From assembly GCF_039555335.1 (NCBI RefSeq), contig NC_092633.1:21100334-21164333 (forward strand): a stretch of DNA of 64,000 nucleotides, given 5' to 3'. The DNA is from Amphiura filiformis (taxonomy: Eukaryota). Under the pieces are notes generated by a model, which saw only the letters and a program-made list of their open reading frames with translations, was not told the DNA's origin and did not search any database. Made by a program: the position numbers and the translations under genes. This document shows, piece by piece, positions 998 through 56,519 of this stretch (the stretch's first letter is position 1; every line of letters begins with the position of its first letter).

Positions 998-1735
998 CTC
1001 ATATACTAAGTTTCAGTGGAACGGCTTTCGATAATTTCCTATTAACACACTAAAGGTTGGATTAAGTAAACACATATCATTACAGGCATCATTTACAGCG
1101 ACGGCAGTGTTCAGTACCTCCTTTAAACATAAATTGTATCTATTTATAGAAATAATGTTTAAAAAATAATTTATGTTGCTCTTTTTTTTCAATGAACCTG
1201 ATCTGCTTCATATTTAGTCTAACCAAACGTTACAACAGGTGATTCTATAATCATTAATGAACAGGTTTGCTATATGATGTGACAAATCAATACAGCAACA
1301 AGAAGAGAACAAGAATTGTTCATTTTGAATATCTGTTAGATAATCTACAGTACATCTTCTGTTTCAAGAATTTGCAAGTTGCAATAAATTCACCTGTCAA
1401 TCAAACCGTAAACTCGGTTATAATGCACTTTGTATTAACCTTCTGCACTACTAAAGCTACTATGAAATTGAAAACTTCTCATTAATGATATTTTTGGTTA
1501 TGCATTATGTAGAACAAATAACACTGTTGCTATTGAAGAGGTTCATTATAAATAACACTGTTTATGGCTGTAAAGTAACAGTAAGGCAAACTTAAAAATG
1601 TTGTTTTACTGGGTAGTACCAGGGATACTGAGTAGTACCAGGGAATGTTGCGTGGGTTTCAAAGAGGTTTTTCTTGCTTTTAAAAAGGATGACAGGGTAT
1701 TTAAAAATAAAATGTCAATATGATCTACACCCACA

Positions 1736-1800
1736 ATCATATAAATCCCCCGACATCAGCACCCTCCACCCCACACATACTACCACCGCCACAACAAAAT
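1736..1800. repeat. C/A-rich low-complexity patch (C-tracts, CACA, CCACC); macro-repeat landmark
   Basis: ccccgacatcagcaccctccaccccacacatactaccaccgccacaacaaa. Homologous patches occur at 12845-12962 and 25975-26050. Confidence 0.7.
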
Positions 1801-2309
1801 ACATAATATTCACAAACACCATTTTGTTTCATACTACTCGTCTTCTCGATCACTTATTTCTTCAGGCTGTGTACAAGTATGAGTAACTTACAACTTTAAT
1901 ACTAGCGTAGGCTTTCTATTAGCCTTTACACATACCAAACACAAAATGCAGACATGAGACCTTGTATAGAACAATGATATTGCTAAGAATTGTGTCCAGC
2001 ACTGAGAAAAACTCAATATCTAGCGTTTGTGGACACGATAAGAAGAAGAAGAAGAAGACCAACAAACACAAACACACATGATATTTTCTTATTCTTTTAA
2101 ATAGCCATTACATTTTTTTAAATGTAAAATAGGTTACTTTGGTTTACACGGAGAGAGCAATCAGAAATGTGGTCTATTAAGTAGGGAGGGATAAGTTGAC
2201 TAGATTAAGGAAAAGCACATACACCTGCTCATGAACACGCACAAACACACCCTACAATATTATAATCATGGATTGATAGAGTCAATGTGGGCTAAGTTTC
2301 TTTCTATTT

Positions 2310-2950
2310 CAGTGTCATTACGCAAGAACGTACAAAGTGATGTTAAAAGTAATACTTTCAGTTTAATAACGCAAAAGTTTACTAAGTGATGCTAAAAGTG
2401 ATGCTTTCAGTGTCAGTATGCAAAAGCTTACAAAGTGATGTTACATAAAAGTGATACTATTAGTGTGATTACGCAATAGGTTAAAAAGTGATGCTAAATG
2501 TGGTACTTTCAGGGTCATTATGCACAAGCTTACAAAGTGATGTTAAAAGTGGTATTTTCTTTGTAATTATGAAGGCTTACACACTGATACTAAAAGTGCT
2601 ATTTTCAGTGCCATTATGCAAATGAAAATTATTGATGCTTTCAGTGCAATTACTCAAAAAGGTTACAAAATGATGCTAAAAGTTATGCTTTCAGCGTCAT
2701 TATGCACAAGATTACAAAATGATGCTAAAAGTGGTGTTTTCTTTGTAATTGTGCATTATACTAATGCTAAAAGTGCTATTTTTAGTGTCATTATGCAAAA
2801 GCATATATATTGATGCTAAAAGTGCAACTTTCAGTTTAATTATGCAAAAGGCTTGCAAAGTGATGCTTAAAGTGATGCTTTCAGTGTCATTATGCAAAAG
2901 CTTACAAAGTGATGTTAAAAGTGATGCTTTCAGTGTCAATACATAAAGGC
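2310..2950 (+). repeat. 49-bp satellite array, about 13 units
   Basis: The unit is approximately gtgtcattatgcaaaagcttacaaagtgatgctaaaagtgatgctttca. The period of 49 was verified from gctttcagtg at 16112 and 16161 in the homologous array. Confidence 0.9.
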
Positions 2951-4190
2951 TTACACAAATTGATACCACAAGTCATCATGAGCTGACAGGTGTTAATGAA
3001 ATAGTAAGCTCGCAACCTCATACAAAGATCAAAAGGCAATAATACATGTATGATTGAATATTTTAGTGCAGGCAACCGTTCAAATTTCCTTGTCGTGTCT
3101 CGCCGAATATTGCCATTAGACTCAATATAAGGCGATATTCTTACAGGAGTTCGCATTTTTTTCTGACAATTCACCGTTTATTTTCCTAAATGTCTGTAAA
3201 AACACTTGACCATTTTGTGTGATTAATCACAAGCAGGACAAATACTACTTCATTTGGAAGTACTGTCTGCAATGATAAGGACTTTGGACGTCAATTTAAC
3301 GTTACGTTGCTATATTGATTTCTTATATATGGATGTGGTCAGTAGCCCGATATAATTTTTTTCTCTTTTATATTGAAAAACGGCTCAAGCTACATGCGTT
3401 ATATAAAAACCCTTTTAAATAATCGTGATGGTGTTAATATGATTTTAAGCAACATGTTTAGTGAAATGTAAGGAGACATTAATGTAAGGCATGTTAGGGT
3501 TACGATTGTTTCCCTAAATAACACTCTTCTTTATAGATAGGTTTATCTGTACTGTATACTTGACGATATTTTTCATCATATTATATTTCACCGCTTCTTT
3601 TCCACGTGTGTGGATTCATTACTCACGGGTTTGATTTTTAGCCAACACAAAAAAATAGCCATTGCGTTAGTTTAAAACCGGAGGGACTCAAAGTCGACCA
3701 AATTGTGCTTAACGAATGTTCCAAGCTATTTCAATATTTTGAATCATCACATAACTTTGTGTATACATCATGCTTTCAGGTTCCTACTGCTCCGACGTAC
3801 GTTTGTATTTTTACAGCAAAATCTCGGATTAAATTCGGTTAAAAATAACATATCTAAAATATGCACTACTTGTGTGCTTTGTTTCGTTATGTTATTTCTT
3901 ATATTCCTCCATACTCTTGGAGCTACTCAGCCCCAGGAATGCATCTGATCAATATTCTAAGCCTCATTGAGTGCCTTGGTAACCACTGAGAAGGCCTCCG
4001 GACATGCCTTAAGCATGCAAGCAAACTTACAAGTGGTCTTCAAAGTAGCCAATATACTCTGCATATTTTCACGTGTTTATTCAAGCAATTCAAACTTTCA
4101 AGCTCTTTCATGACGAACGTAAAGCATGATAAGGTTTCGTCATGGTATCTAGGCCTATAACGTCTGTATAAAATAAATTATATCAACATA

Positions 4191-6001
4191 CAGACTTGAC
4201 ATAAGTATGGGATAATTCTTCACGAAGTGCAAGGACTAATCTGAAAGGGGTCTGCATAAACCGCACGGGTTAAATATTTCATATTGGGGTGTGTCGGGAG
4301 ATGGTGGTGTCAAATAATTTTTTTATAGAAAATGTGCTTTCCATGACTACATTATGGTGCTCATAATGTAGTGAATTAGCCTAAAACGGCGGATTTAAGG
4401 AGACTGAATTTGAGTGGGAGAATTTTTAAATTTAACAAAATGGCTCTTAAAAGTAGTACGTACTCAGAAAGTTCAATCATAGAAGAAATTGGAACCCCTA
4501 AGGGTTCTTGGCCTTGTCTCGTATATGGAACCTCAAGGTTTCTTCCAAGGAACAGCGCCATCTACGTCTGCTACCAATAGGAGGCAACAGACGAGAAAGG
4601 TCAAAGCTGTTAGTAACTGGTCATATATGTGCGGAAGGAAGTACTTGTCACAATCCCTGTTGAGTGTTTCAAGCTACCCCTCTTTCTTATCCAAATTGAT
4701 TCCTTTATGTGTATTCTTTTCCTGCTGATTTTAATGTCTTATTTTGCTTCATCTCATTCAATTTGAGAAAGTGCTGTGTTACAGCACGGAACGTCATTGA
4801 GGTATGTCAATATCACCTATTTTTTATTATTTGTAAATAATTTCTCCAAAGAACCTTTGTTGAAGAACCCTATCACAAAGGTTCTTTAACATGTTTATTG
4901 AAGTCTAAAGGTTCTCCAATTTTGTCCAGTATATGGAACCCTACGGTTCATCAAAGAACCTTCATGATATCATGATATGGGTTCTTTGAATAACCCTATC
5001 AAAAAGGTTCTTTGTTGAACCTTTAAAGGTTCTTCTAGTTTGTCCCCATATATTGCACCCTATGATTCTTCAAAAAACCTTTGCAATAAGGTTCTTTGAA
5101 GTATGGTGACACGTACTCTAGAAATTGTCCTTAAAAGTACGGTCTTAAAGGTGAACGGCCAGAAAATTTTATATATTTGCTTGAAAATATAAAATCCGTG
5201 AAAATTTTATATATTTGCTTGAAAATATAGAATCCGTGGCTATTTAAAAATAGCGTTTTCCCTGCGTTTCAGTCGTATATGTAATACACTAGGAACCCTT
5301 TTCAAGTAAATTAGGGGTTCCTTGTGGAACTCAAAAGCCATAAAGAATCGTATTTTCACTGCGAGAACCCCATTGAGACTTCTAGCCTAGAGGTTCTTCA
5401 AGCGCACATGGTTCTTAAACGAATCCTATATCATTTTGAAGAACCCTTGAAGAACCCTTTTTCTAAGAGTGTTTGAATGGCCCCTAGGGGCAAATGTTAT
5501 AAACTTACTGTGCACAAAGAAACACGTGAGTTCATTGGACAACCAGAAATCCGCGCAGTTGTTTTTGTACCGTAAGTTTATAACATTTGACTTTTGACGC
5601 CGAGTACGTACCACGTTTAGGAAAAATATTTTAAGCTCCTCCCATTTAAAAGAAAATTGCGCATTGCAAGTACATTTCAGCTCTGATGAAAGCCAAAAAG
5701 GAAATATCACCTTAAACTCCAATGAATTTGATAATAACAATAACAATGTTGGATTAAGTCCGAAATTGTATCCCCCACAAAGATCAAATTCATTCCTTTA
5801 AATCCGCCATTTTAGGCAAATGCACTACATTTTGAGCACCATAATGTAATCTCATGGGGAAACACAATTTCTATAAAACAATTATTTTATACCATCTCCC
5901 GACACACCCCAATTAATATTAAGTCCGTGCGGTTTATGCTGACCCCTTCCAGATTAGTCTTGGCACTTCGTGAAGAAATAGTCCATACAATGTCAAGTCT
6001 G
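4191..6001. mobile_element. Foldback-type non-autonomous DNA transposon with ~245-bp terminal inverted repeats. Termini begin CAGACTTGAC (hAT-like CAG start, unproven).
   Basis: Left arm 4191-4435 is the reverse complement of right arm 5757-6001. The interior carries reiterated ggttct/agaacc sub-repeats and a 2x40-bp tandem repeat at 5161-5240. It is absent from the paralogous site in macro-repeat copy 2 (~17300, aataaattatgtagtttctgttcaag). Confidence 0.7.
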
Positions 6002-6394
6002 TAATGTACTTTCCGTTCAGTTCAAAACGAAACATTCGAGACATAATATTCCCCACACATGTCGCATTAAAAAAAAAATAAACACGTACTAATGAACTAG
6101 CCCCTACCAGCTAAACACTAAACTGTGTTTCATGTCAAGAGAAACAAATCATATTTCAAGAGTTGAATTGCTAAGGAGAAAAACGTGTTTTTGTGATTTT
6201 GCAATTCCCTTCGATTTGATTAATTTTGACTTGGGTTAAAGTTTCCATGGATAGAAACTAAAATAATAAGTTTGATGCAAATTTTCAGTCTTCAGTTTTA
6301 TTTTATTATTTCTTTTATTTCTTGGATTTTATGGATGTAAGCAGTTTTGCAATTCAACAAAATAACCACTTCTCTAGAAACCACCTTTGCAGTA

Positions 6395-7055
6395 CAATTT
6401 GATTCCAGCTTTGACGTCTACTTTATGCTTCTTGATCAATGCCTTTAAAATCAAAAGGGAAAATTGAAACTTGAAAATTGAAAAATTGAAAATTGAAAAC
6501 TTTAATTGACAAATTCCCGAAATTTCCCGAAAGGAAAAATAGCGATATCTCAGTAAGGGAAGGTGAAATGATAGTCAAACAAGCACCACAATGTGTATTG
6601 TGACCGACGTAATAACTCAATTTGATTCCAGCTTTGACGTCTACTTTATGCATCTTGATCAATGCCTTTAAAATCAAAAGAAAAAATTGAAAAATCTCAT
6701 TTTCTTTTTTAATTACGATTTTTTAATTAAATTCGTGAAAATGCCATTTTCCGTCATTTCAATAATCCAACTTTTGTTCATTAATTAATTAGTAATTCTT
6801 ACAATTATAATGGCCAAAAAAGTTCATTTTGATTTTAAACGTTAATGAACATTAAATGCTATCATAAAACTTCAAAACATTATAAGAAAAAATATTTTCT
6901 CTAGATTTTAGACAACTTTAATTGACATTTTCCAGAAATTCCCGAAATTTCCCGAAAGGGAAATAGCGATATCTCAGTAAAGGAAGGTGGTATAAAAGTC
7001 AAATAAGTACCAAAATATGTATTTTGACCGCCGTAATAACTCATTTTGACCAAAA
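6395..7055 (+). repeat. Local duplication of a ~223-bp unit with (GAAAATT)n and a tttcccgaaatttcccgaaagg motif; private to macro-repeat copy 1
   Basis: 6395-6462 repeats at 6618-6685 (caatttgattccagctttgacgtctactttatgc). 6502-6630 matches 6917-7050. The block 6130-7095 is missing from copy 2, where 17450 directly abuts the homolog of 7100. Confidence 0.6.
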
Positions 7056-8589
7056 GTGGACGTAAGCTGTTTTGCAAGTCAACTCTTCATGTATCCTATC
7101 TATGGCGGGCCATGGCGGTCATAAAAAAATTAGGTGCAAAAGGAGACGCGATCTCAAAGACGAGCATAACTTTTTCAGTCTTCTTCATATTTTGTCGACA
7201 TTTCTGAAACATAAATGGTTTAAGGGAATTCCTCCAATTTATCAATCATTTTAAGCAATTTATCAACCATTTTGGCCCTTGCCGAATATCTGAAATTGAT
7301 GTGACCCATCCTACAACCATGTCAAATTCTGACTTTTTGTATATTTAAACATAACTGTGAATTATATACAAGCAGTAAATAAGCTTTAAATGGCACCAAA
7401 TTTGCAGTTCTGTACCATAAAACCTATTTAATATTTATGAAGATGTGCTACAATTTGCTAAGAGTTATTTAAGTGTTAGTGTGATTTAAATTCTTAGATA
7501 TAAATAACTACATTTATTCTATTACGACCATGAAGAGGGATTAACAAAAGTCAAGATTCAATTGTTTGCTTTGTTCCATTAACTCTATATTATATTTTCT
7601 TTTATCTTAAATTGGATTTCATTACAAAACTACTAGGTCTACCAACATCACACTTGAATACTCGGATTAAACGATAAGTGAATTAATTAATAGTCCTTAA
7701 TTATTATTGGTTTAAGAAAAACAGAACAAACACATATACATCTTATAAGAAGACGCTGAGAAACATAAGAAATACATGATTCAATTAACTGATTTGAATA
7801 GCAAATATGACGAAAAATGTACATTTCAGATGTCATTCTGTTTTGACGCTCATTCATAATATAGTCATAGTAGATAACCCGGAAGTTGCACCTGTTACTT
7901 ATAAATTCGCGTAAAGTTTTGTACAATAAAGCCTTTGCCATATTGTGCACACATCAAAGAAGAGAATTCTCTGCCACCTGGCCATTGTTTTGACGTGGAC
8001 TTCATTCCAATGTTCAACGCTGGAGAAAAATAATATATCGCTGTAGGACTAAAGTAAACATGTTGTAGAATAAGGATTATTGTAAAACCTCTAGTAGGGT
8101 AAATATTCCGCAAAGGTAAAAGAAAAGGAAAAAGGGACAAGAAATGTTATAAATGGACACGTAGACGAGACATGCAAAATACATAAGGAAACAAACAGGA
8201 AGGAATTTCAGACGCGGATTAAGAAGTAAACTTTAGGAGACACACGGATATACTAGGCTTGGTTTATTGTGTAATGGTAAATGAATGGATAGTGACAATG
8301 CAGATAGGCAGGTGTTATAATACAGTTCCCTGTTGATGTGTACATGTATTACAGAGGTTCATCCCATTATTTCAAATGGGGTTATTCCAGATCTTTGAGA
8401 TCCTGAAACTGGATATTTATATTTATGACCAAAAAACGTAGTGGAATTAATATCATAATATGTCATGGTTTGATATTTTGACACTAGAAAGTCATACAAT
8501 GTTAAGATTTATGTCATCTTTCTAAAGCTTCACTAAAGAATGTTGTTGATTTGCGTTCACTGGAAATAACCTCAATGTAGTTCCATTTT

Positions 8590-11390: not shown

Positions 11391-11711
11391 GTAGAAGTAG
11401 TGATGTAACAGGTTTAATTACCATAGCAATGGGTTTACACTATTCTTTAATGTCCTGCACTATATGCAGGATGTACTAATCATCTGTGTATGTTTGCAAT
11501 GATAGATTGACTACGATACCGCTCTTTTCAAAGACATTAATCTTACAGGTGTTGGAGATCAGCATGATCTAATTCTAAATAATTACGATCCAGGTCTTTA
11601 TCCATGTACGGCATGAATGGCGTAACGCGACTTGCGCAGGCCAATACAATAAAAAAAAATAGTGTAAATCCATTGCTATGGTAATTAATCCTGTTACATC
11701 ACTACTTCTGC
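11391..11711. mobile_element. MITE, ~320 bp, with ~52-bp terminal inverted repeats
   Basis: gtagaagtagtgatgtaacaggtttaattaccatagcaatgggtttacactat at 11391-11443 is the reverse complement of 11659-11711. The internal region is shared with 59290-59400. Confidence 0.7.
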
Positions 11712-12844
11712 GACGAATTGATACTATTCCTTACATTGTTTTATTACTTACGCGTTATTAAAGCAGTATGCTATATAGTAGAATTTGTTATCCATTCTTG
11801 TTTCAGTACTGCTGCTTCAAATATTTTTGTTGTGCAGATAACCGTATTATATATAATATATACATACAGGTATTTCTCACATCTAAGTTCATTATTAATC
11901 CATAATTACTTCCTGTGAAGCCAAATTTGACAATATGTATACAAGGAAAGAAAAAGATAGAGATTTAATGGAACATTAAGAAAAAAGACAGAGTTCAGCA
12001 ATACATTCCGAACACATGCTGAACACATAATAATCACATGTGCCTGAAACTATTTATATAATAGCTATGGACAAATTGTGGGATATTTTTGTCACCTTCT
12101 TGCAATGACCTTACTTAATAATAACTCCAAAAATATGTAAAACCAACCTGCAGAAAGAAGGGTTTTGTGATGATTAGATCTAAAAAAGTGCTACAAAATA
12201 TTGGTTTTGAAATTGGTTTTCGAAATATGTTTACAAAACATGTCATTAAGACCTCGTTTTGGTCTTCCTAGTAACCATTTTTGTCTGATTTGGATTAAGT
12301 GCATGAACATATTTCATTGATATACAGGCATCATTTACAGCGACTGCAATGTGCATTACCTCCTTCAAACATAAACTGTATCGTCATAGAAATAATGATT
12401 TAAAAATAATTTGTGTTGATCTTTCTTCCCAATGAACCTGACCTGCTTCATATGTACTCTCTATTTGGTATAGTTGTGACAAATCAATAGAGCAACAATA
12501 TGAGTACAAGAATAGTTCGTTTCGAATATCTGTTAGATAATCTACTGTATGTCTGCTTCTATTTCAAGAATTTGCAAGTTGAAGAAATTCACCTGTCAGT
12601 CAGGCCGCAAACTCGGTTGCATTTTGTATTAACCTTCTGCACTACTAAAGCAACTATGAAATTGAAAACTTCTCTTTAAGGATATCTTTATTTATGCATT
12701 ATGTAAAACAATTAATTAATCTTACAAATGTGGTTTAACGCGTATTATACTGACAAATACTGAGTGGTACCAGAAAATATCGCGTGGATTTTCAAAGAGG
12801 AATTTTTTGCTGTCAGTATGTACAGCTATACAAAGGACAGACAC

Positions 12845-12962
12845 ACGAACCTCTCTACAACCACCACCACATCACCACCTTCCAACACACCCCACACACA
12901 CCACACACACCCCCATCCCCACCCCCCCCACACACACACCCACACCCACCACATATTTCATA
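12845..12962. repeat. C/A-rich low-complexity patch (expanded version)
   Basis: ccaccaccacatcaccaccttccaacacaccccacacacaccacacacacccccatccccaccccccccacacacacacccacacccacc. The His/Pro/Thr-rich ORFs reported in the track here are translation artefacts of this patch. Confidence 0.7.
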
Positions 12963-13419
12963 CTACCACTCTTCTTTACCACGACTTTAAGTAACAACTT
13001 TAGTACTAGCATAGGCATTCCGTTCCCTGAACAACCGTGCGAAATGTCAACCTTCTCCCCCAAACACAAAATGCAAAGCTGAGACATTGCAGAGAACAAT
13101 GACATTGCTAAGAATTGTGTCCAGCTCTGATTGAAACACAATATCTAGCGTGTGAAGACACGATAAGAAGAAGAAAGTCAACAAACACAAAAACACAAGA
13201 CATTTTCTTATTCTTTGGTTTACACGAAAAGCAATAAGGAATCTTGTGTTGTAATGTTCACAAGGAATGTGGTCTAATAACAGGGATGAATAAGTTGACT
13301 AAGTTGAGGAAAAGAACACAAACTTGCTCATAAACAAGCAAAAAAACACCCAATGATCTTATCATCAGGCCATAAAATGGATTGATAGAGTAAATTAAGG
13401 TCAAGTTTCTTTCTATTTC

Positions 13420-14655
13420 AGTGTCATTATGCAAAAGCTTGTAAAATGATGATAAAAGTGACGCTTTCAGCGTTATTATGCAAAAGCTTACAAAGGTTAC
13501 AAAGTGATTCTAAAAGTAATGCTTTCAGGGTCATTATATAAAAGTTTACAAAGCGATGTTAAAAGTTATGCTTTCAGTGTAATTATGCAAATGGCTCCAA
13601 AGTGATGCTAAAATTATGCATTCAGTGTTATTATGCAAATGGTTACAACGAGATGCTAAAAGTGATGCTTTCAGTGTAATTATACAAACAAAGTGATGCT
13701 AAAGCTGATGCATTCAGTGTAAGGCTTACAACGTGATGCTAACAATGATGTTTCAGTGTCATTATTTAAACTTTGACAAAGTTATGCTGATGCTAAAAGT
13801 GATGCTTCCAGTGTCATTATGCAAATAGTTACAATGAGATGATACATTCGGTGTAATTATGCAATGGTTTACAACGTGATGCTTTCAGGGTCACTATATA
13901 AAAGGTTACAAAGTGATGCTAAAAGTGATGCTTTCACTGTAATTAGGCAAATAGTTACAAAGTGATACTAAAATGATGCTTTCAGTGTAACTATGCAAAG
14001 GTTTACAACGTGGTGTTAAAAATGATGTTTTCAGTGTCAATATTTGAAAGCTAAAAGTGATGCTTTCAGTGTCATTATGCAAAGGCTTACAACGTGATGC
14101 TAAGAATGATGTTATCAGTTTCATTATTTAAAAGCTTACAAAGTAATGCTGATGCTAAACCTAATGCTTCCAATGTCATTATGCAAATTGTTACAACTAG
14201 ATGCTAAAAATGATACATTCAACGTAATTATGCAAAGGCTTACAACGTGATGCCAAAAATTATGTTTCCAGTGTCATTATTTTAAAGCTTACAAAGTGAT
14301 GCTGATGCTAAAGGTGATGCTTCCAGTGTCACTATGCAAATGGTTACAAGCAGATGCTAAAGATGATACATTCAGTGTAATTATGCAAAGGTTTACAACG
14401 TGATGCTAAAAATGATGTTATCAGTTAACAGTTTCATTATTTAAAAGCTTTCAAAGTAATGATGATGCTAAACGTAATGCTTCCAATGTCATTATGCAAA
14501 TTGTTACAACTAGATGCTAAAAATGATACATTCAGTGTAATTATGCAAAGGTTTACAACGTGATGCTAAAATAATGTTTTCAGTTTCATTATTTAAAAGT
14601 TTACAAAGTAATGCTGATGCTAAACGTAATGCTTCCAATGTCATTATGCAAATTG
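13420..14655 (+). repeat. 49-bp satellite array (copy 2, part a), interrupted at its 3' end by a MITE
   Basis: Same unit as 2310-2950. The MITE 14659-15237 sits inside a repeat unit. Confidence 0.9.
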
Positions 14656-14658
14656 TTA

Positions 14659-15237
14659 GGGAGGACAGTTTTTATGGTCTACTTAGCTCAGCAATTCTTT
14701 GCGTCTTCGATAGCGCATTGTATCGGAGAGGTACCTGGCTTTTATCAAAGCCCAAAACCATAAAAGCATGTAGCCAACTCTGTCAGGCTCCGCTCAATTG
14801 TCCACCCCGCTCCGATACGACACGTTGACCAAATATCAATCGAATCTATTTTACGACCCTGCTTGAATTAACCCCTTGAAACCTAATTGCACCACTTTTA
14901 ATTTTTATGTATTGGTCAGGCACAAACAAAATTAAACTTACACACATTATTGACTTTCTATTGACCACAAAACACGACCCCAGACATGCTTATTTAATGA
15001 CCACTTGAGTAGTTGATTTAAGTGGGTCGTTATGTACTTACTGAACACAAAGGAAATTGATTATGGTTTTACCATCGACCGTGTTTATAATCCTGCTGCT
15101 CTGCTGAACGCTCCGATAGATATCAGCAAACCCGTATACTATTCGCTTGTTCCTATCGAACGCTCTAGCGTACATGAACCATTATTGAAGACAGCAAAGC
15201 ATTGCTGAGCTAAGTAGACCATAAAAACTGTCCTCCC
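14659..15237. mobile_element. PIF/Harbinger-like MITE (579 bp) inserted into the 49-bp satellite
   Basis: Perfect 37-bp TIR gggaggacagtttttatggtctacttagctcagcaat. It is flanked by TTA at 14656-58 and 15238-40. The satellite unit reads through uninterrupted if the element plus one TTA is removed (tgcaaattgTTAcaactagatg). Confidence 0.7.
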
Positions 15238-15240
15238 TTA

Positions 15241-15790
15241 CAACTAGATGATAAAAATGATACAGTCAGTGTAATTATGCAAAGGTTTACAAGTGATGCT
15301 AAAATAATGTTTTCAGTGTCATTGTTTGAAAGCTTACAAAGTGCGGCTAAAGGGATGCTTTCAGCATTGTTATGCAAAAGCTTACAAATGGGTTAAGTGG
15401 TGCTAAAAGTGATGCTTTCAGTGTCACAGTGCAAAGGCTTACAACGTGGTGCTAAAAATGAAGTTTCAGTGTCATTATTTAAAAGCTTACAAAGTAATGC
15501 TGATGCTAAACGTAATGCTTCCAATGTCATTATGCACATTGTTACAACTAGATGCTAAAAATGATACATTCAGTGTAATTATGCAAAGGTTTACAAAGTG
15601 ATGCTAAAAATGATGTTTTCAGTGGCATTGTTTTAAAGCTAAAAGTAATGCTTCCCGTGTCACTATGCAAACGGTTACAAAGTGATGCTGATCAAATTGA
15701 TGCTGAAAGTGCTACTTTCAGTGCAAAGTGATGCTTAAAGTGATGCTTTTAGTGTCATTGTGTAAAGGCTTACAAAAATTGACACCAAAA
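15241..15790 (+). repeat. 49-bp satellite array (copy 2, part b)
   Basis: The array continues after the MITE. It ends in a truncated copy of the array 3' flank (15790-15895, cttacaaaaattgacaccaaaaatagtcatgtgctgacaggtgccaatg). Confidence 0.85.
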
Positions 15791-15895
15791 ATAGTCATGT
15801 GCTGACAGGTGCCAATGAAACTGTAAGTCCGCTTTTTCACGCCTCGCCGAATATTGCCAAGTTAGACTACTAAGGCGGTATTCTTCCATTTTCAA

Positions 15896-16240
15896 GAACA
15901 AAGGTTACAAAATGATGCTAAAAGTGATGCTTTCAGCGTCATTATGCACAAGATTAAAAATTGATGTTAAAAATGGTGTTTTCTTTGTAATTGTGCAAAG
16001 GCTTATATACTAATTTTCAGTGTCATTATGCAAAAGCATACATATTGATGATAAAAGTGCAACTTTCAGTGTAATTATGCAAAAAGCTGGCAAAGTATTG
16101 CTAAAACTGATGCTTTCAGTGTCATTATGCAAAAGCTTACAAAGTGATGCTAAAAGTGATGCTTTCAGTGTCATTATGCAAAAGCTTACAAAGTGATGTT
16201 AAAAGTGATGTTTTCAGTGTCAATATATAAAGGCTTACAC
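15896..16240 (+). repeat. 49-bp satellite array (copy 2, part c), followed by the complete 3' flank
   Basis: A second array block follows the internal flank copy. This implies an internal array-plus-flank duplication in copy 2. Confidence 0.85.
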
Positions 16241-17726
16241 AAATTGATACCACAAGTCATCATGAGCTGACAGGTGTTAATGAAATAGTAAGCTCGCAAC
16301 CTCATACAAAGATCAAAAGGCAATAATACATGTATGATTGAATATTTTAGTGCAAGCAACCGTTCAAATTTCCTTGTCGTGTCTCGCCGAATATTGCCAT
16401 TAGACTCATATAAGGCGATATTCTTACAGGAGTTCAATTCAACGTTTATTTTCCTTAATGTCTGTAAAATACTTCACCATTTTTTGTGATTAATAACAAG
16501 CAGTACAAATAATACTTCATTTGGAAGCACTGTCTGAATTGACAAGGACAAGGACGAAAATTTAACGTTACGCTGCCTTAATGATTCCCCATACAAGGAT
16601 GCGGTCAGTAGCCCGATATAGTTTTCTTTCTCTTTGACCTTGGAAAACGGCTCAAGCTACATGCGTTATATAAAAAACGATATTAAATAACCGTGATAAT
16701 GTTAATTATAATTTTAAGTATAAACATGTTTAGTGAAAGGGTTACGATTTTACCTTAACGACTCTTTTTAGATTTTTTTTATTTTTATTTTTTATTTGAA
16801 CTGTATACTTCTTGAAGATGTTTTATTTATTTTATATTTTACCGCCTCTTTTCCACGTGTGTGGATTTATTATTTAAGGTTTTTTTAAAAGGGTTTCATT
16901 TTTGCCCAACACAAAATAGCCATTGCGTTATTTTAAATCCACCGGGGCCAATAGTCCATGGTGCTTAACCAATATTTTGAATGGATCAACATCATATAAC
17001 GTTGTGTATACATCATGCTTTCAGCTTCCTACTGCTCCGACGTATGTCTGTATTTTTACAGCAAAGTCTCGGATTAAATTCAGTTAAAAATAACATACCT
17101 ACAATATGCACTTCTCGTGTGTTTTGTTTCGTTATGTTATTTTGTATATTCCTCCATACTCTTGGAGCTACTCAGCCCCAGGAATGCATCTGATCAATAT
17201 TTTAAACCTCATTTGTTAGTATCCACTGAGAAGGCCTCCGGACATGCCTTAAGCATGCAAGCAAACTTACAAGTGGTTTTCAAAGTAACTAATAATACTC
17301 TGTATACAATAAATTATGTAGTTTCTGTTCAAGTTAAAACAAAGTCGACACTCAGACATTCCCCACACATGTCGCTTTTTTAATACGTGCTAACGAAGTA
17401 ATCCCTACAATGAATCAGCTAAGCACTGTATTTTCAAAATCCTAAGTTCTCTAAGGCGGTCATAAGAAAAAATACGTACAAAGGGAGACGCGATCCCAAC
17501 GACGGACGGAGCCTGTCAGTTTTCTTCATATTTTGTCGACATTACTGAAATGAAAATGGTTTAAGAGCATTCCCCTAATTTATCAACCATTTTTAAGCAA
17601 TCGCAATGCAATGATCCGTGCCGGATCTCAGACATTAATATGACCATCCTACTACAACCCTGGACATGTCAACATTTTTGTATAATTTAAACATAACTGT
17701 GAATTACCAACAATAAATAACCTTAA

Positions 17727-18270
17727 GGGATCTGGAATGAGCGTTTTGAGCGTTTCGACAATATTTTTGTGGGACATGAGAGCACATCAGACATATCGAA
17801 TTGCATTCTGAATACGAAGAATGTCTTTCTGATATCAATTTTTTTTTTTTGAAATTCACGATATAAAACAAATTTTATGACAAATTATTAAATTTGATAT
17901 TTTTCACATTTTTGATATACATGTATAACAGTCCTCGAAGTAAATTTTATAAATCTAATGATATATTCTTAAAGTGTATGTAGCTAGGAGGTAAAGCCGA
18001 CGATCAATTGAAAATTTTGACCTTTCATCCCACCTACATACACTTTAAGTATAAATCATCAGATTTATAAAGTTTACTTCGAGTGCTGTTTCAACAAAAA
18101 TATCAATTTTCAATCATTTGCCATAAAATGTGTATTACATTGCGAATTTCAAAAAATCAAAATTATTTGATATCAGAAGGACATTCTTCGTATTCAGAAT
18201 GCAATTCGATATGTCTGATGTGCTCTAATGTCCCACAATAAATACTGTCTAAACGTTCATACCCCACCCC
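17727..18270. mobile_element. TTAA-flanked palindromic MITE (544 bp) with ~70-bp perfect subterminal inverted repeats and GGG...CCC termini
   Basis: TTAA at 17723-26 and 18271-74. 17762-17830 is the reverse complement of 18170-18237. The empty paralogous site at ~7388 (gcttTAAAtggcaccaaat) has a single TTAA. Confidence 0.7.
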
Positions 18271-19023
18271 TTAAGAATGGCACCAAATTTGCAGTTTTGT
18301 ACCATAAAACCTATAGTATATTTATGAGGATATGCTACAATTTGCTAAGGGTTTTTTAAGTGGTAATGTAATTTCAATTCTGAGGAATAAAGCAATACAT
18401 TTCTCCAATTACGCAGTCCTGAATAGGGATTAACAAAAGTCAAGATTCAATTGTGTGCTTTGTATTCACATGAGTATGACAAACCATTAACTCTAGATAT
18501 TCAATTACAAATATTTTACCTTATGATATGGTCGGTTCTTTTATCTTAAATTGTCTTCATCACAAAATTAGGCCTGCCTGCATCGCAATAAGTGAATTAT
18601 TTACTAATCCTTAATCATTATTGGTTTAAGAAACACAGACCAAACACATATAAATCTTATAAGAAAACCCTGAGAAATACAAGAAATATATACTAACTGT
18701 TTTGAATAGTAGATAAGACGAAAATAAACCAAGATTTGAGTTGTCATTGTGTTTCAATGCTCATTTATAAAGTCATAGTTGATAAGTCTGAAGTTGCACC
18801 TGTTCGTTACAAATTCGCGTAGAATTGTGTACAATAAACCCTTTGCTATTGTGCACACATCAAAGAAAAAGGTTCTGTGCAACTTTTTTTTTATCTTTCC
18901 ACAGAGCACACAAGGTGCCCTGTGTATTTATTTATCAAACATGATCTCAGTTATACATAGTTATAAAAGCCACAATTATACAGAATAATAACAATAATAT
19001 TACATTGATGAAAGTAACTGTTA

Positions 19024-19713
19024 TTACATATTTATAGAGTTCCATCTTTTATTCCATTCATACATTTTACCTTTATTGTTTGCAATGTGTTTTTCAGTCT
19101 CGGCGACAGTATTAAGCATACCTTTAAAACCTTGTATGTCCAGCTTATTTTTATTACATCTTGCATTATAAATAAACTTTTTCCCCTGAAGAACAACAAA
19201 ATTATAATGACAATAATCAACATCTAATATGCCCAACAGAACATCCTTCATGGTAAGAGTAACTCTTTTTTTAAAGATATTATCTTGAACCTTCTTCCAA
19301 AATTGAGCAGAAGTACCACATTGCCAAAATAAATGTGGGATATTTTCTAACTCCTGATTACAAAAAGTACAAAGATTTGAATCAACATAACCATATTTAA
19401 ATAGATTTTCATTTATACCTATAATTCTATGCAGAATTTTGAATTGAAAATACCTAAGTTTGGTTGATAGGGAGGAAGACAAGGAAATCCTGTAAATATC
19501 GTTCCAATTTAAATTCATATCATCAAAAAAGACAGCCCATTTGGCCTCGGCTTTGGGCGCAGTTAAACAACTTGTCAACGCAAATTTTGTGAACCAATTT
19601 GCAGACCTTCTTAGAGGAACAGATAAGAGCAAGCATATCATCATGATCATTCTGAACAGTTCCCAAGTCTTCCCCCCTCTCGACACTTCTGATCCATACA
19701 TTTGGAATGGCAT
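19024..19713 (-). pseudogene. L1-like ORF2 C-terminal region with Cys-rich motif and stop codon (copy B)
   Basis: ORF ends 19024. The ~130-bp 3'UTR then runs to the poly(A) at 18892. Confidence 0.7.
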
Positions 19714-21009
19714 AGATTAGAGCAAAATATTCCAGAAAGTTACATTGTAAATTATACTTGGTCTTCAAGATATCAAGGGGAAGAAAACTATCATCTTCAT
19801 TTAAAATATCAGAAATAAATTTAATACCTTTCTCATGCCAGACTTTTTTGTAAACAGTGTTTTGGGCGATAACAATAGATGAATTATTCCATAATATTTG
19901 ATGTCTAAAATGACTTGAAGGAGAATCATAAGTAATTGTACACCAAGCGTTGAGAATTTCACCAATAAACACATTCTTAATAAGCTTAATACATTTCTCC
20001 TCTGGTTTAGTGTTAAAAAAACAAAAAAGATTACCACCAATCTGTTTCATATAAAACATATAAAAACATTTCCATTTACCATTGTTGTTCACATCCAAGA
20101 GACGTTTAACCCAAGCCACTTTAAGCCCATTAATAACTGAGGGAATGTGAACCATCTTGAGGCCCCCTTTCTCATAGTCACCAATGATGGACTTTCTGCT
20201 GAGCTTATCTGGTTTTCCTGACCAAATAAATTTAAATATTATCGAGTCAACCTCCTTCAAAAAATTATCAGGTGGTTTAGGTAAAACAGAAAACAGAAAA
20301 ATTAATTGAGAAAGACCCAAGGATTTAACAATTGTAATTTTACCAATTGGACTTAAATCTCTCATCGACCAAATTCGCAAGATTTCCTTGAGTTTTTTGG
20401 AACGAAATTTAATTCAAAAATATTGCTCAGATCAGAACTAAAAACTACACCCAAAAGACGAACAGGATTGGCAGTAAAATGTAAATCATCATTGTTTAAA
20501 TCAGGAGGATTATCCTTAAACAAACCTAAAGGGAGTAACTCAGATTTATCCAAGTTAATTTTCAAGCCAGAATAAATTTGGAAAGTCTCAAGAATGTGAA
20601 CAACTCTGTGAAGGAGCCAACATCCTTTAAGTAAATAGTGGTATCATCCGCATAAGCACTAATAATAATTTCAGTATTCTCAACCATGATACCTTTAACA
20701 CTATTATCATTTCTGATGGCCAAATTCAAAATCTCACTACTAATTATATAAAGCAGCGGACTAAGTGGACAACCTTGACGAAGTCCACAAAACAATTAAA
20801 AAAATCAGAAGCATGTCCATTGTTCATAACACACGAGGTAATATCTGTATAGAAAACTTTCACCCAATTAATCAAATCATCACCAAAATTAAACAATTTT
20901 AATGCCCTAAACACAAAGGACCATTCAAGTTTGTCGAATGCCTTTTCAAAATCAATTAAAAACATAATACCAACAAAATTATTTTCTGTGCAACCTGATC
21001 ATTGGGTTT

Positions 21010-22714
21010 GAAGTACCACATTGCCAAAATAAATGTGGGATATTTTCTAACTCCTGATTACAAAAAGTACAAAGATTTGAATCAACATAACCATATTTAA
21101 ATAGATTTTCATTTATACCTATAATTCTATGCAGAATTTTGAATTGAAAATACCTAAGTTTGGTTGATAGGGAGGAAGACAAGGGAATCCTGTAAATATC
21201 GTTCCAATTTAAATTCATATCATCAAAAAAGACAGCCCATTTGGCCTCGGCTTTGGGCGTCTTAAACAACTTGTCAACGCAAATTTTGTGAACCAATTTG
21301 CAGACCTTCTTAGAGGAACAGATAAGAGCAAGCATATCATCATGATCATTCTGAACAGTTCCCAAGTCTTCCCCCCTCTCGACACTTCTGATCCATACAT
21401 TTGGAATGGCATAGATTAGAGCAAAATATTCCAGAAAGTTACATTGTAAATTATACTTGGTCTTCAAGATATCAAGGGGAAGAAAACTATCATCTTCATT
21501 TAAAATATCAGAAATAAATTTAATACCTTTCTCATGCCAGACTTTTTTGTAAACAGTGTTTTGGGCGATAACAATAGATGAATTATTCCATAATATTTGA
21601 TGTCTAAAATGACTTGAAGGAGAATCATAAGTAATTGTACACCAAGCGTTGAGAATTTCACCAATAAACACATTCTTAATATTAAAGCTTAATACATTTC
21701 TCCTCTGGTTTAGGGTTACATTCCCAAAAAAGATTACCACCAATCTGTTTCATATAAAACATATAAAAACATTTCCATTTACCATTGTTGTTCACATCCA
21801 AGAGACGTTTAACCCAAGCCACTTTAAGCCCATTAATAACTGAGGGAATGTGAACCATCTTGAGGCCCCCTTTCTCATAGTCACCAATGATGGACTTTCT
21901 GCTGAGCTTATCTGGTTTTCCTGACCAAATAAATTTAAATATTATCGAGTCAACCTCCTTCAAAAAATTATCAGGTGGTTTAGGTAAAACAGAAAACAGA
22001 AAAATTAATTGAGAAAGACCCAAGGATTTAACAATTGTAATTTTACCAATTGGACTTAAATCTCTCATCGACCAAATTCGCAAGATTTCCTTGAGTTTTT
22101 TGGAACGAAATTTAATTCAAAAATATTGCTCAGATCAGAACTAAAAACTACACCCAAAAGACGAACAGGATTGGCAGTAAAATGTAAATCATCATTGTTT
22201 AAATCAGGAGGATTATCCTTAAACAAACCTAAAGGGAGTAACTCAGATTTATCCAAGTTAATTTTCAAGCCAGAATAAATTTGGAAAGTCTCAAGAATGT
22301 GAACAACTCTGTGAAGGGAGCCAACATCCTTTAAGTAAATAGTGGTATCATCCGCATAAGCACTAATAATAATTTCAGTATTCTCAACCATGATACCTTT
22401 AACACTATTATCATTTCTGATGGCCAAATTCAAAATCTCACTACTAATTATATAAAGCAGCGGACTAAGTGGACAACCTTGACGAAGTCCACAAAACAAT
22501 TTTAAAAAATCAGAAGCATGTCCATTGTTCATAACACACGAGGTAATATCTGTATAGAAAACTTTCACCCAATTAATCAAATCATCACCAAAATTAAACA
22601 ATTTTAATGCCCTAAACACAAAGGACCATTCAAGTTTGTCGAATGCCTTTTCAAAATCAATTAAAAACATAATACCAACAAAATTATTTTCTGTGCAACC
22701 TGACCATTGGGTTT
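21010..22714 (-). repeat. Tandem duplicate of 19309-21009 (LINE 5' part plus TSD plus 15 bp of upstream flank)
   Basis: The junction at 20983-21011 reads ttctgtgcaacctgatcattgggttt|gaagtaccac. That is the TSD plus flank joined to internal LINE sequence (= 19309), with a 2-bp 'ga' microhomology. The two units are near-identical. Confidence 0.7.
22065..22670 (-). pseudogene. L1-like ORF2 reverse-transcriptase fragment (copy A)
   Basis: 201-aa ORF with FIDFEKAFD, RQGCPLSPLLY and YADDTTIY. The equivalent region in copy B (20362-20965) is broken into three frames by homopolymer indels. Confidence 0.8.
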
Positions 22715-22759
22715 GACGTGGACTTCATTCCAAATGCTCCAAGCTGGAGTAAAATAATA

Positions 22760-36995: not shown

Positions 36996-37301
36996 CTAAC
37001 AAGATACATTGAAAAGATGAGTTTTGAGTCCTTTTTTGAAAGAGTTTATGTTTGATACTGAACGAAGCTTGAAAGGCAACTTGTTCCATACCTTTGGTGC
37101 AGCTGCGGCAAATGATCTTTCGCCGTAGAACTTGGTTTTACACTTCTTTGGAGCGCGTGTACAAAGGAGAGCTTGTGAAGCCGATCGTAGAGTCCGCTGT
37201 GGCTTATACTCCTCAATAAGATCGCTAATATATCTAGGAGCCAACCCGTGCAATGCCTTATAGGTAAGCAATGCAATCTTGTATACAATCCGCTGTTGCA
37301 C
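36996..37301 (-). CDS. L2 ORF2 extreme C-terminus, displaced into another frame by a frameshift
   Basis: ALLTYKALHGLAPRYISDLIEEYKPQRTLRSAS...APKVWNKLPFKLR...FKKGLKTHLF is the canonical L2 tail. Confidence 0.8.
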   Translation of the reverse strand: MQQRIVYKIALLTYKALHGLAPRYISDLIEEYKPQRTLRSASQALLCTRAPKKCKTKFYGERSFAAAAPKVWNKLPFKLRSVSNINSFKKGLKTHLFNVSC

Positions 37302-42062: not shown

Positions 42063-42190
42063 TCCATGTGCTTAGAGGTTAATAACTGCGCATCGGTTAT
42101 TTGGAGGGCATTGTGAAAAATCTAAACATTTTGTTTAGATTTTTCACAATGCCCGACATATAACCGATGCAAAGTTATTAACCTCATTCA
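42063..42190. repeat. Perfect 54-bp-arm hairpin (palindrome)
   Basis: gaggttaataactgcgcatcggttatttggagggcattgtgaaaaatctaaaca is the exact reverse complement of tgtttagatttttcacaatgcccgacatataaccgatgcaaagttattaacctc. Confidence 0.7.
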
Positions 42191-53135: not shown

Positions 53136-53369
53136 TTTCTGCAGATCTGGTCATCTGGTGGTAGTAGAACAAATAAACGAACAGATACAGTAAGTTTGCT
53201 TTTAAAGTGATATCACATTAACATGATTAAGAACTCTGTAACCCACCTTTGCACCGTATTTTTAGTGGGACCGTAGAGCATATCACACACATATATCCTT
53301 TTGATATCAAATAATATTTGAAATTCGCCTAATAATACAAAATGTATGGAAAATTAAACTTTATAAACC

Positions 53370-53560
53370 AAATGATACCGGTATGTACTTAAAGTGTATG
53401 TAGCTGGGAGGAAAAGCTGTTTAGACCTTTCTTATTGAGGATATAATTGTGGGAAACTTCAATATAAAAGGTCAACATTTTCATATGATGGTCGACTTTT
53501 CATTCCAGCTACATACAAGTACGTAGGATTACATTTCTATAAAGTCTACCTAGTTTAGTT
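53370..53560. mobile_element. Fragment related to the 17727-18270 MITE family
   Basis: cttaaagtgtatgtagctgggagg...ccagctacatacaagtac resembles 17975-18050. Confidence 0.4.
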
Positions 53561-53576
53561 TGAGGACTGAAAAATG

Positions 53577-53990
53577 CCATCAAATTTGTATTATATCGTG
53601 AAAAATCCAATATCAGAAGGACATTTCTCATAATCAGAATGTAATTTGGTGTGTTTGATGTACTCCCAGATCCCACAAAAACACTATGCAAAGGTGGGTG
53701 ACCGAGTCCTTAAATCAAATTTTGATTTTGTTGCCACAGAAAACACAAGCACTGAAAAATGTCAAATATGCCAATTTTTGCCATCAAATTTGTATCATAT
53801 CGGGAATTTCAAAAAATCAAAATTATTTGATATCAGAAGGACATTCCTCTTATTCAGAATGTAATTTAGTGTGTCCGATGTGCTCTCAGGTCTCACAAAA
53901 ATACTGTGCAACGGTGGGTGACCGAGCCCTTAAATCAAACTTTGATGCCACAGAAAACAGAAGCAACCCCAAAAAAACCGGAGCCTCTTC
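53577..53990 (+). repeat. 2 x ~204-bp tandem duplication derived from the 17727-family MITE arm
   Basis: ccatcaaatttgta...tatcagaaggacatt...attcagaatgtaattt.gtgtgt..gatgt.ctc..ag.tc.cacaaaaa..ctatgcaa.ggtgggtgaccgag.ccttaaatcaaa occurs at 53577 and again at 53781. Confidence 0.6.
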
Positions 53991-56199: not shown

Positions 56200-56480
56200 A
56201 AAAAATGTGATATTTTTGGAAAATATCTTCAATAAGAAAGGTCAAAATTTTCAATTGATCGTCGGCTTTTCATCACAGCTACATACACTTCAAGTACATA
56301 CCATTACATTTATACAAAAGACTATTAAATTAAAAAAATATCAATTTTTAATCATTTGCCATAAAATCAGAATTATTTGATATCGGAAGGACATTCCTCG
56401 TATTCAAAATGCAATTCGATATGTCTGGTGTGCTCTCAGGTACCACAAAAAAATATTTGACAACGTCGCTTTCCGAGCCC
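56200..56480. mobile_element. Fragment related to the 17727-18270 MITE family
   Basis: tatcggaaggacattcctcgtattcaaaatgcaattcgatatgtctggtgtgctctcagg matches 18170-18237. Confidence 0.45.
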
Positions 56481-56519
56481 TTAATGTATGTATGTATATT
56501 ATTATTGTTTTTTGCGGCT

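What the first reader, a model, noticed from the sequence alone, without database searches (positions are those of the whole stretch)
17723..18274. TTAA-flanked palindromic MITE with GGG...CCC termini and an internal empty-site control
The 544-bp element (17727-18270) is bounded by TTAA on both sides. The paralogous sequence in macro-repeat copy 1 (about 7388, gctTTAAatggcacc) carries a single TTAA and no element. TTAA targeting is the signature of piggyBac-superfamily transposition, but canonical piggyBac ends read CCC...GGG whereas this element reads GGG...CCC. The 70-bp perfect subterminal inverted repeats make it an extreme hairpin. Related fragments at 53370-53990 and 56200-56480 show the family is multi-copy and has undergone local tandem duplication.
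Basis: partly seen in the sequence, partly recalled or inferred. Interest (0 to 1): 0.55.

Follow-up and report, generated by a model that had tools for sequence, protein, structure and literature searches.

The report
Kolobok-type hairpin MITE in brittle star
This is a 544-bp non-coding, hairpin-shaped relic of a cut-and-paste transposon inserted at a TTAA site in the brittle star Amphiura filiformis; TTAA duplication plus GG...CC ends is the published signature of the Kolobok superfamily, not piggyBac, so it is a tidy but ordinary repeat.

Summary
A 544-bp element (17727-18270) lies between two TTAA copies. The paralogous segment at 7386-7389 has one TTAA and no element, and the flanks align seamlessly once the element and one TTAA are removed. 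The whole element is a near-palindrome: arms about 89% identical, DNA fold -162 kcal/mol, z = -27.8. The "70-bp perfect" repeat is really 47 bp perfect, or 72 bp with 2 mismatches.

Two more copies are in the window: 53231-53929, with a tandem duplication of one arm plus flank, and a half copy ending at 56480. All five independent termini abut TTAA.

The window is Amphiura filiformis; a LINE ORF is 100% identical to an annotated protein of that species.

Kolobok transposons make TTAA duplications and, unlike piggyBac, end 5'-RR...YY-3'. Xenopus T2-MITEs are the known non-autonomous analogue.

Two other TTAA-flanked MITE families with purine-purine ends are in the same window. One carries the T2-type AGGRR end.

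No autonomous partner could be retrieved, so the superfamily call rests on duplication plus termini only. Verdict: an old, non-autonomous, Kolobok-type MITE. It is a new family of a known kind, of low interest.

The parts
17723..17726 (.). Left TTAA target-site duplication
   Evidence: Sequence read. The paralogous site has a single TTAA.
17727..18270 (.). 544-bp palindromic MITE (GGGATCTGG...CCCCACCCC), full copy
   Evidence: It is absent from the paralogous segment.
17727..17994 (+). Left arm of the hairpin; the terminal inverted repeat extends through the whole arm
   Evidence: Inverted-repeat pairs I1-I4. Global arm alignment gives 89% identity.
17995..18022 (.). 28-nt asymmetric central loop (AAGCCGACGATCAATTGAAAATTTTGAC region). 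It gives the element an orientation.
   Evidence: There are 28 nt between the innermost arms 17927-17994 and 18023-18090. Fold.
18023..18270 (-). Right arm of the hairpin
17779..17825 (.). Longest perfect inverted-repeat segment (47 bp); its partner is 18180-18226
18271..18274 (.). Right TTAA target-site duplication
7386..7389 (.). Empty site: a single TTAA in the paralogous segment (macro-repeat copy 1)
53227..53933 (.). Second family copy: TTAA | 53231-53929 | TTAA. Ends read GAACTCTGTAACCCACC... and ...GGTGGGTGACCGAGCCC.
53610..53946 (.). Post-insertion tandem duplication (about 220-bp unit, 87% identical) spanning the right arm, the TTAA and host flank of the second copy. The inner duplicated end is GAGTCC|TTAA at 53704-53713.
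   Evidence: Direct repeats D1-D3; sequence
56209..56484 (-). Third copy: half element (centre plus one arm) ending GAGCCC | TTAA (56481-56484). The other arm is missing.

Best explanation
The element is an old, non-autonomous cut-and-paste DNA transposon (a MITE) of the Kolobok type in the brittle star Amphiura filiformis.

Inferred mechanism: a transposase supplied in trans by an autonomous Kolobok element bound the inverted termini (family consensus about GGGCTCGGTCACCCACCGTTGCACAGTATTTTTGTGGGAC). It excised the element and integrated it at a TTAA, and staggered cleavage and repair duplicated that TTAA.

The element carries no coding capacity. It consists of two about 250-bp arms that are inverted copies of each other around a 28-nt loop, so either strand can fold into a long hairpin.

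Shown here: the insertion, the TTAA duplication, the purine-purine ends, the hairpin anatomy, the multiple copies and the later tandem duplication.

Inferred: the identity of the mobilising transposase, and the order of events. The insertion into segment copy 2 probably came after the segmental duplication. Arm divergence is K2P 0.09-0.12 and flank divergence is 0.14-0.17, which corresponds to roughly 25-32 versus 38-45 Myr at the published 1.885e-9 per bp per year.
For: 1. TTAA lies on both sides, and a single TTAA with no remnant lies at the paralogous site.
2. Five independent termini from three insertions all abut TTAA (17723, 18271, 53227, 53930, 56481). P is about 1e-10 by TTAA frequency.
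3. Termini read GG (four) or GA (one) inward from the TTAA, that is RR...YY. [quoted passage not shown]
4. Repbase classifies non-autonomous DNA transposons by terminal sequence, TSD and TIR (PMC4455052).
5. Two unrelated TTAA-flanked TIR families with purine-purine ends lie in the same window. One is 49550-49908 (GGGGGTAC...). The other is 44577-44875 (AGGAGG..., the T2-type AGGRR end). TTAA-bounded TIR pairs number 9 observed against 0.07 expected. Relatives of both end at TTAA in contigs of ENA sample ERZ25070167 (organism not identified), which share the window's LINE family.
6. The host is identified as A. filiformis. Kolobok is reported from echinoderms (PMC9587614).
7. The element has no long ORF, and the hairpin z-score is -27.8.
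Against: - No autonomous element sharing these termini was found, so no transposase links the family to Kolobok.
- The Kolobok catalytic-core profile search returned no hit named Amphiura among the 120 listed, and the window has no Kolobok fragment. Both results are uninformative rather than negative, because the A. filiformis genome could not be searched as DNA.
- The ends do not carry the exact Xenopus T2 motif AGGRR; they read GGGCT/GGGAT/GGGGT.
- Only three insertions could be examined.
- RR...YY is a weak, two-base criterion.
- The target and terminus rules of the Sola groups could not be checked in the held literature.
Confidence: 0.7

Rival explanations
1. A piggyBac-superfamily MITE with atypical termini. 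A piggyBac-like DDD transposase recognises GGG...CCC ends, inserts at TTAA and could excise precisely.
For: TTAA duplication and a clean single-TTAA empty site. This is compatible with piggyBac's precise excision and insertion chemistry (established knowledge).
Against: All observed termini begin with purine-purine (GG or GA), never CCC/CCY. The literature uses exactly this difference to separate Kolobok from piggyBac (PMC9587614). CCC...GGG reads the same on both strands, so this is not a strand artefact.
Confidence: 0.08
2. A MITE of another or undescribed superfamily that makes 4-bp duplications at TTAA, such as a Sola group or an unknown transposase.
For: The assignment rests only on the duplication and two terminal bases. 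From my own recollection, unverified here, Sola elements make 4-bp duplications with group-specific target preferences.
Against: The held literature names only piggyBac and Kolobok as TTAA-specific. A T2-type AGGRR family co-occurs in the same window, which points to Kolobok activity in this lineage.
Confidence: 0.12
3. A Tc1/mariner-type (TA duplication, element AGGG...CCCT) or PIF/Harbinger-type (TWA duplication) MITE that happened to land in TTAA contexts.
For: Any of these readings reconstructs the same empty site, ACCTTAAGAATGG, so the empty site alone cannot distinguish them (reasoning).
Against: - Under the TA reading, the outer T/A is host sequence yet is conserved at 5 of 5 termini (P about 0.004).
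- Under a 3-bp reading, the two termini become asymmetric (GGG... vs AGGGG...).
- The termini do not resemble the CAGT/CTCCCTCC-type or GGCC-type ends (own knowledge).
- A genuine TA|CAG... element in the window (4191-6001) shows what the TA type looks like here.
Confidence: 0.05
4. Not a mobile element: a palindrome generated in place by inverted duplication or replication error, with the TTAAs coincidental.
For: Long palindromes can arise locally. The window is rich in segmental and tandem duplications.
Against: Three dispersed copies lie in different flanks, all ending precisely at TTAA. The paralogous site is cleanly empty. Terminal sequences are shared across copies.
Confidence: 0.02

Closest known systems
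Xenopus T2-MITE families (e.g. Xmix), non-autonomous Kolobok elements
   Same: Short non-coding elements with inverted termini. They have a TTAA target duplication, purine-rich termini immediately inside the TTAA, are multi-copy, are long-lived, and are prone to internal or adjacent tandem amplification (PMC6004289).
   Different: The T2 ends read AGGRR. This family reads GGGCT/GGGAT/GGGGT, with no leading A. The host is an echinoderm rather than a frog. Here the inverted repeat spans the whole element. No partner transposase has been identified.
Kolobok superfamily autonomous transposons (Kol0 / XKol elements)
   Same: TTAA-specific 4-bp duplication and 5'-RR...YY-3' termini (PMC9587614; XKol table).
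   Different: Autonomous elements are 7-14 kb and encode a THAP/DDE transposase. This element is 544 bp with no ORF.
piggyBac superfamily and its MITEs
   Same: TTAA target duplication; the clean empty site is compatible with precise excision.
   Different: piggyBac ends are CCC...GGG. Here they are GGG...CCC, and this defining feature was tested and not met.
Zebrafish ANGEL palindromic repeat
   Same: A repeat that is an approximate palindrome able to fold on itself into a long duplex (PMC8096273). Izsvak et al. 1999, which from my recollection is the paper describing ANGEL, is one of the two sources PMC6004289 cites for the T2 definition.
   Different: No sequence similarity was tested. PMC8096273 labels ANGEL as hAT, so its superfamily is reported inconsistently. 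RNA editing of this brittle-star element is unknown.
Solo LTDRs of KolobokP (echinoderms, molluscs)
   Same: Short non-autonomous Kolobok-derived units of about 450-660 bp with their own short TIRs, found in Echinodermata.
   Different: KolobokP units have only short TIRs (up to 18 bp) and 3-5 bp duplications, and occur as direct repeats around an internal region. This element is a full-length palindrome with a TTAA duplication.

Membership tests
Kolobok superfamily (non-autonomous member) | [quoted passage not shown] | tested here: met
   TTAA lies on both sides of two full copies and at the intact end of the half copy. There is a single TTAA at the paralogous empty site.
Kolobok superfamily (non-autonomous member) | Termini 5'-RR ... 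YY-3' | tested here: met
   The termini read GG, GG, GA, GG and GG inward from the TTAA. The criterion comes from PMC9587614 and PMC6004289.
Kolobok superfamily (non-autonomous member) | Terminal sequence shared with an autonomous element encoding a Kolobok DDE (C/DxxH signature) and THAP transposase. Repbase rule: positions 1-11 with at most 1 mismatch and the same TSD. | not testable with these tools
   - A. filiformis loci are not retrievable.
- The profile search gave no Amphiura-named hit in the 120 listed.
- There is no Kolobok fragment in the window.
T2-MITE family (Xenopus/teleost) | Terminal AGGRR motif directly after the TTAA | tested here: not met
   This family reads GGGCT/GGGAT/GGGGT/GAACT. 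A different element in the window, 44577-44875, does read AGGAGG.
piggyBac superfamily | TTAA target-site duplication | tested here: met
piggyBac superfamily | Termini 5'-CCC...GGG-3' | tested here: not met
   All termini start with G. None of the TTAA-bounded TIR pairs found in the window starts with CCC.
piggyBac superfamily | Autonomous partner with a DDD transposase (Pfam DDE_Tnp_1_7) | not tested
MITE (generic) | Short (under about 800 bp), no coding capacity, terminal inverted repeats, target-site duplication, multiple copies | tested here: met
   The element is 544 bp with no ORF of 110 aa or more. It has TIRs and a TSD. There are three loci and six arms in 64 kb. The genome-wide copy number was not measurable.
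Tc1/mariner or PIF/Harbinger MITEs | TA or TWA duplication with symmetric termini | tested here: not met
   The outer T/A is conserved at 5 of 5 termini (P about 0.004). A 3-bp reading makes the termini asymmetric.

The most novel reading that the evidence does not exclude
The GGG...CCC hairpin families at 17.7 kb and 49.5 kb are mobilised in ophiuroids by a TTAA-specific transposase lineage that is neither canonical piggyBac nor described Kolobok. Alternatively, the near-perfect hairpins have been co-opted as sources of double-stranded or small RNAs.
Probability: 0.07. Interest if true: 0.5.

Novelty: new member of a known kind. Interest (0 to 1): 0.15.

Why it matters
It matters little beyond annotation.

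It gives a clean, internally controlled example of a TTAA-duplicating, purine-ended palindromic MITE in a brittle star, with filled and empty paralogous sites in one window.

It shows that several such families coexist in Amphiura filiformis, a genome noted for DNA-transposon activity and extensive rearrangement (PMC11310086).

Practically, it warns that TTAA flanks alone should not be read as piggyBac. The family could seed a proper Kolobok/MITE library for ophiuroid genomes.

The long hairpin and the tandem duplication at the 53-kb copy hint, but do not show, that such palindromes contribute to local instability.

Tried and rejected
1. Fetching more A. filiformis DNA. Exact-product look-ups for the window's LINE ORF and two other A. 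filiformis proteins found no indexed loci.
2. ENA contigs from sample ERZ25070167 that carry related LINEs (L001-L003, 64 kb in total). They hold no copy of this family by blastn or nhmmer. They do hold relatives of two other TTAA MITE families.
3. Fishing for spurious ORFs of other copies with a profile of the translated arm (A1). There were 11 candidates and none scored.
4. An exact degenerate 26-mer of the arm against the JGI metagenome, IMG/VR and prokaryote genome collections. There were 0 hits in each, as expected for an animal repeat.
5. A Kolobok catalytic-core profile (A2), built from Data S5 of PMC9587614. It gave 165 hits, but none labelled Amphiura among the 120 listed and only 1389 candidates were scored. 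This is inconclusive. Two hit loci from other ENA samples (L004, L005) share nothing with the window.
6. tblastn of 128 Kolobok-like proteins against the window gave only noise.
7. Rfam. There were only sub-threshold matches to the long-hairpin plant miRNA models MIR7993 and MIR7996 on both strands (58.9 bits against a gathering score of 100). I judged this a generic hairpin effect, not homology.
8. k-mer enrichment. TTAAGGG is not enriched (9 observed vs 7.6 expected). TTAAAGG appears enriched (28 vs 15.1), but this is partly because duplicated segments are counted twice, so I did not use it as evidence.
9. The Xenopus CDS alignment supplement (PMC6004289, file 4) was machine-read with dropped letters and was unusable as a query.
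10. The target and terminus rules of the Sola groups could not be found in the held papers. The original Sola paper is not held.

Full report
**What is there**

The sequence at 17723-18274 reads ...aaataacc TTAA GGGATCTGGAATGAGCG ... CGTTCATACCCCACCCC TTAA gaatggcacc.... The 544 bp between the two TTAAs are almost entirely an inverted repeat.
- The element matches its own reverse complement over positions 25-537.
- Four nested inverted-repeat blocks bring the arms to within 28 nt of each other, at 17927-17994 and 18023-18090.
- A global alignment of the two halves gives 219 matches, 27 mismatches and a few indels, which is 89% identity.
- Folded as single-stranded DNA it forms one long hairpin of -162.2 kcal/mol, against -45.7 +/- 4.2 for dinucleotide shuffles (z = -27.8).
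- The longest perfect stretch is 47 bp (17779-17825 with 18180-18226). It becomes 72 bp if two mismatches are allowed.

**The empty site**

A self-comparison of the window shows a colinear, diverged segmental duplication, roughly 1057-7977 against 12290-18883. Its alignment breaks exactly at the element:
- 7114-7386 pairs with 17455-17724;
- 7389-7977 pairs with 18276-18883.

Deleting the element and one TTAA from copy 2 gives a sequence that aligns straight through the junction with copy 1. The junction reads AAATAAGCTTTA-AATGGCACC against AAATAACCTTAAGAATGGCACC, and local identity is 88%. Copy 1 has one TTAA (7386-7389) and no trace of the element. This is a valid filled/empty comparison.

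It does not by itself fix the length of the duplication. A TA, TAA/TTA or TTAA duplication would all reconstruct the same empty site.

**The family and its ends**

A profile of the arms finds six arms in the window and nothing else.
- Two arms belong to the 17.7-kb copy.
- Three belong to a copy at 53231-53929: a left arm and a right arm present twice.
- One belongs to a half copy ending at 56480.

Read inward, the ends are TTAA|GGGATCTGG, TTAA|GGGGTGGGG, TTAA|GAACTCTGT, TTAA|GGGCTCGGT (with its duplicate TTAA|GGACTCGGT) and TTAA|GGGCTCGGA. The flanks outside them are unrelated.

TTAA occupies 1.0% of window positions, so five independent termini all abutting it is not chance (about 1e-10). 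If the true duplication were only the central TA, the outer T/A would be host sequence, yet it is conserved at 5 of 5 termini (P about 0.004). A 3-bp reading makes the two ends unequal. The 4-bp TTAA duplication with GG...CC (RR...YY) ends is therefore the only symmetric, fully consistent reading.

At the 53-kb copy, a unit of about 220 bp is tandemly duplicated at 87% identity. The unit holds the right arm, the TTAA and about 35 bp of host flank.

**Host and context**

The window is animal DNA with 34% G+C, LINE reverse-transcriptase/endonuclease ORFs and a 49-bp satellite. The 573-aa LINE ORF at 38410-40131 is 100% identical, end to end, to an NCBI "uncharacterized protein [Amphiura filiformis]" on a 78.6-Mb sequence. 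The window is therefore a brittle-star chromosome.

The published genome paper reports 59% repeats and a recent DNA-transposon burst, but names no superfamilies (PMC11310086).

The element sits in repeat-rich, apparently non-coding DNA. No ORF of 110 aa or more lies between 12 kb and 19 kb, and a LINE fragment starts about 750 bp downstream.

**What it is**

The literature resolves this directly.
[quoted passage not shown] - Repbase curators classify non-autonomous DNA transposons on exactly these features: termini, duplication and inverted repeats (PMC4455052).
- Kolobok is documented in echinoderms.

By those criteria this is a Kolobok-type MITE. It is not a T2 family member in the strict sense, because its ends read GGGCT/GGGAT rather than AGGRR.

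**Supporting context from the same window**

I scanned for TTAA...TTAA pairs 80-1500 bp apart whose inner 16 nt are inverted repeats (at least 13 of 16 matching). The scan returned 9 pairs against 0.07 expected from first-order Markov simulations. Two of them are further families.
- 49550-49908 reads TTAA|GGGGGTACTACACC... with 15 of 16 matching. It is itself palindromic over its full length (76%).
- 44577-44875 reads TTAA|AAGGGC.../AGGAGGATTTCGTGATCC, which is the T2-type AGGRR end.

Neither is similar in sequence to the 17.7-kb family. The three families share only the TTAA and the purine-purine start. That argues the TTAA is target-derived and that a Kolobok-like activity operated repeatedly in this lineage.

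Relatives of both families end at TTAA in contigs of ENA sample ERZ25070167: L001 reads caaacTTAA|AGGAATATTCAG and L003 reads cttgtTTAA|GGGGGTACTACACCCC. Those contigs also carry LINEs 77-83% identical to the window's. The sample's organism was not identified, and a related ophiuroid is my guess.

**Mechanism and timing (inferred)**

The element has no coding capacity, so it must have been moved in trans by a transposase recognising its ends. It integrated at TTAA with a 4-bp staggered cut.

The two arms differ by K2P 0.09-0.12. The flanks of the two segmental copies differ by 0.14-0.17. With the published neutral rate of 1.885e-9 per bp per year, and assuming identical arms at insertion, this gives roughly 25-32 Myr for the insertion and 38-45 Myr for the duplication. 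That order fits insertion into copy 2 after the duplication. The margins overlap, however, and insertion before duplication followed by precise excision from copy 1 cannot be excluded.

Copies differ from each other by K2P 0.14-0.40. The family is therefore old and is not part of the 2%-divergence burst.

**What could not be done**

The decisive test is an autonomous element with the same ends and a Kolobok transposase. It needs the A. filiformis assembly as searchable DNA, which these tools do not provide.
- Peptide fishing for other copies found nothing.
- Exact-word scans of the metagenome, viral and prokaryote collections found nothing.
- A Kolobok catalytic-core profile search listed no Amphiura protein. 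It scored only 1389 word-sharing candidates, so it says nothing about absence.
- The window has no Kolobok fragment.
- I could not verify the target and terminus rules of the Sola groups, so a non-Kolobok, non-piggyBac source keeps some probability.
- Sub-threshold Rfam matches to plant MIR7993/MIR7996 at the hairpin centre, on both strands, are best read as a generic long-hairpin effect.

**Verdict**

The interpretation needs one correction: Kolobok-type, not an aberrant piggyBac.

This is a new family of a well-known kind of element, of low general interest. Its value is mainly for repeat annotation of ophiuroid genomes, and as a reminder that TTAA flanks are not diagnostic of piggyBac.

My confidence that it is a TTAA-duplicating MITE is about 0.95. 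My confidence that the mobilising superfamily is Kolobok is about 0.7.

Noticed in passing
window 49550-49908: A second, unrelated TTAA-flanked MITE of 351 bp with GGG...CCC ends (TTAA|GGGGGTACTACACCTC / GGGGGTACTACACCCC, 15 of 16 matching). It is itself a full-length palindrome (76% self reverse-complement). A similar terminus next to TTAA occurs in ENA locus L003 at 1122, with a nearby duplicated copy at 1176 reading TCAA.
   Followed up: partly
window 44577-44875; L001:3809-3958: A 291-bp TTAA-flanked element whose ends read AAGGGCATTTCGTGATCC / AGGAGGATTTCGTGATCC, the Xenopus T2-MITE type AGGRR end. A 75%-identical relative in an ENA contig ends caaacTTAA|AGGAATATTCAG.
   Followed up: partly
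whole window: TTAA-bounded inverted-repeat pairs (80-1500 bp apart, at least 13 of 16 matching) number 9 observed against 0.07 expected. Besides the families above, they include 11414-11688 (related to 59208-59396) and a 95-bp mini-palindrome at 42083-42177. In both of these the inverted repeat continues outside the TTAA, so the TTAA there is probably internal.
   Followed up: partly
window 4191-6001: A 1.8-kb element with about 225-bp terminal inverted repeats (84%) starting CAGACTTGACAT and flanked by TA on both sides, so Tc1/mariner-like. It lies inside the about 3-kb segment (4066-7113) that macro-repeat copy 1 has and copy 2 lacks.
   Followed up: partly
window 19310-22719: A head-to-tail duplication of a 1.7-kb LINE reverse-transcriptase fragment (19310-21014 vs 21010-22719) at 98.9% identity. 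It is much younger than the other duplications in the window.
   Followed up: no
window 2307-2955, 13416-14658, 15237-16239: Arrays of a 49-bp satellite (TTTCAGTGTCATTATGCAAAAGCTTACAAAGTGATGCTAAAAGTGATGC), with higher-order periods of about 100 and 153 bp. They are carried in both copies of the macro-repeat.
   Followed up: no
window 17928-18091: Sub-threshold Rfam hits to the plant miRNA precursor models MIR7993 (58.9 bits, gathering score 100) and MIR7996 on both strands at the centre of the hairpin. This is most likely a generic long AT-rich hairpin effect.
   Followed up: partly
window 38410-40131 (-) and 37046-38434 (-): The LINE endonuclease and reverse-transcriptase ORFs are split by a frame break. 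The first is annotated in NCBI as an ordinary 'uncharacterized protein' of Amphiura filiformis, so a transposon ORF sits in the gene set.
   Followed up: partly
L001, L002, L003 (ENA ERZ25070167): Contigs filed in a metagenome-assembly accession carry LINEs 70-83% identical to the window's and relatives of two of its MITE families. They look like echinoderm DNA, possibly from a related ophiuroid, rather than microbial DNA.
   Followed up: no
window 54463-55903 vs 56509-57878: A 1.4-kb direct duplication at 82% identity. The half MITE copy (about 56209-56480) sits 25 bp upstream of the second unit, whereas the full copy at 53231-53929 is 530 bp upstream of the first. It is unclear whether truncation of the half copy is linked to this duplication.
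   Followed up: no
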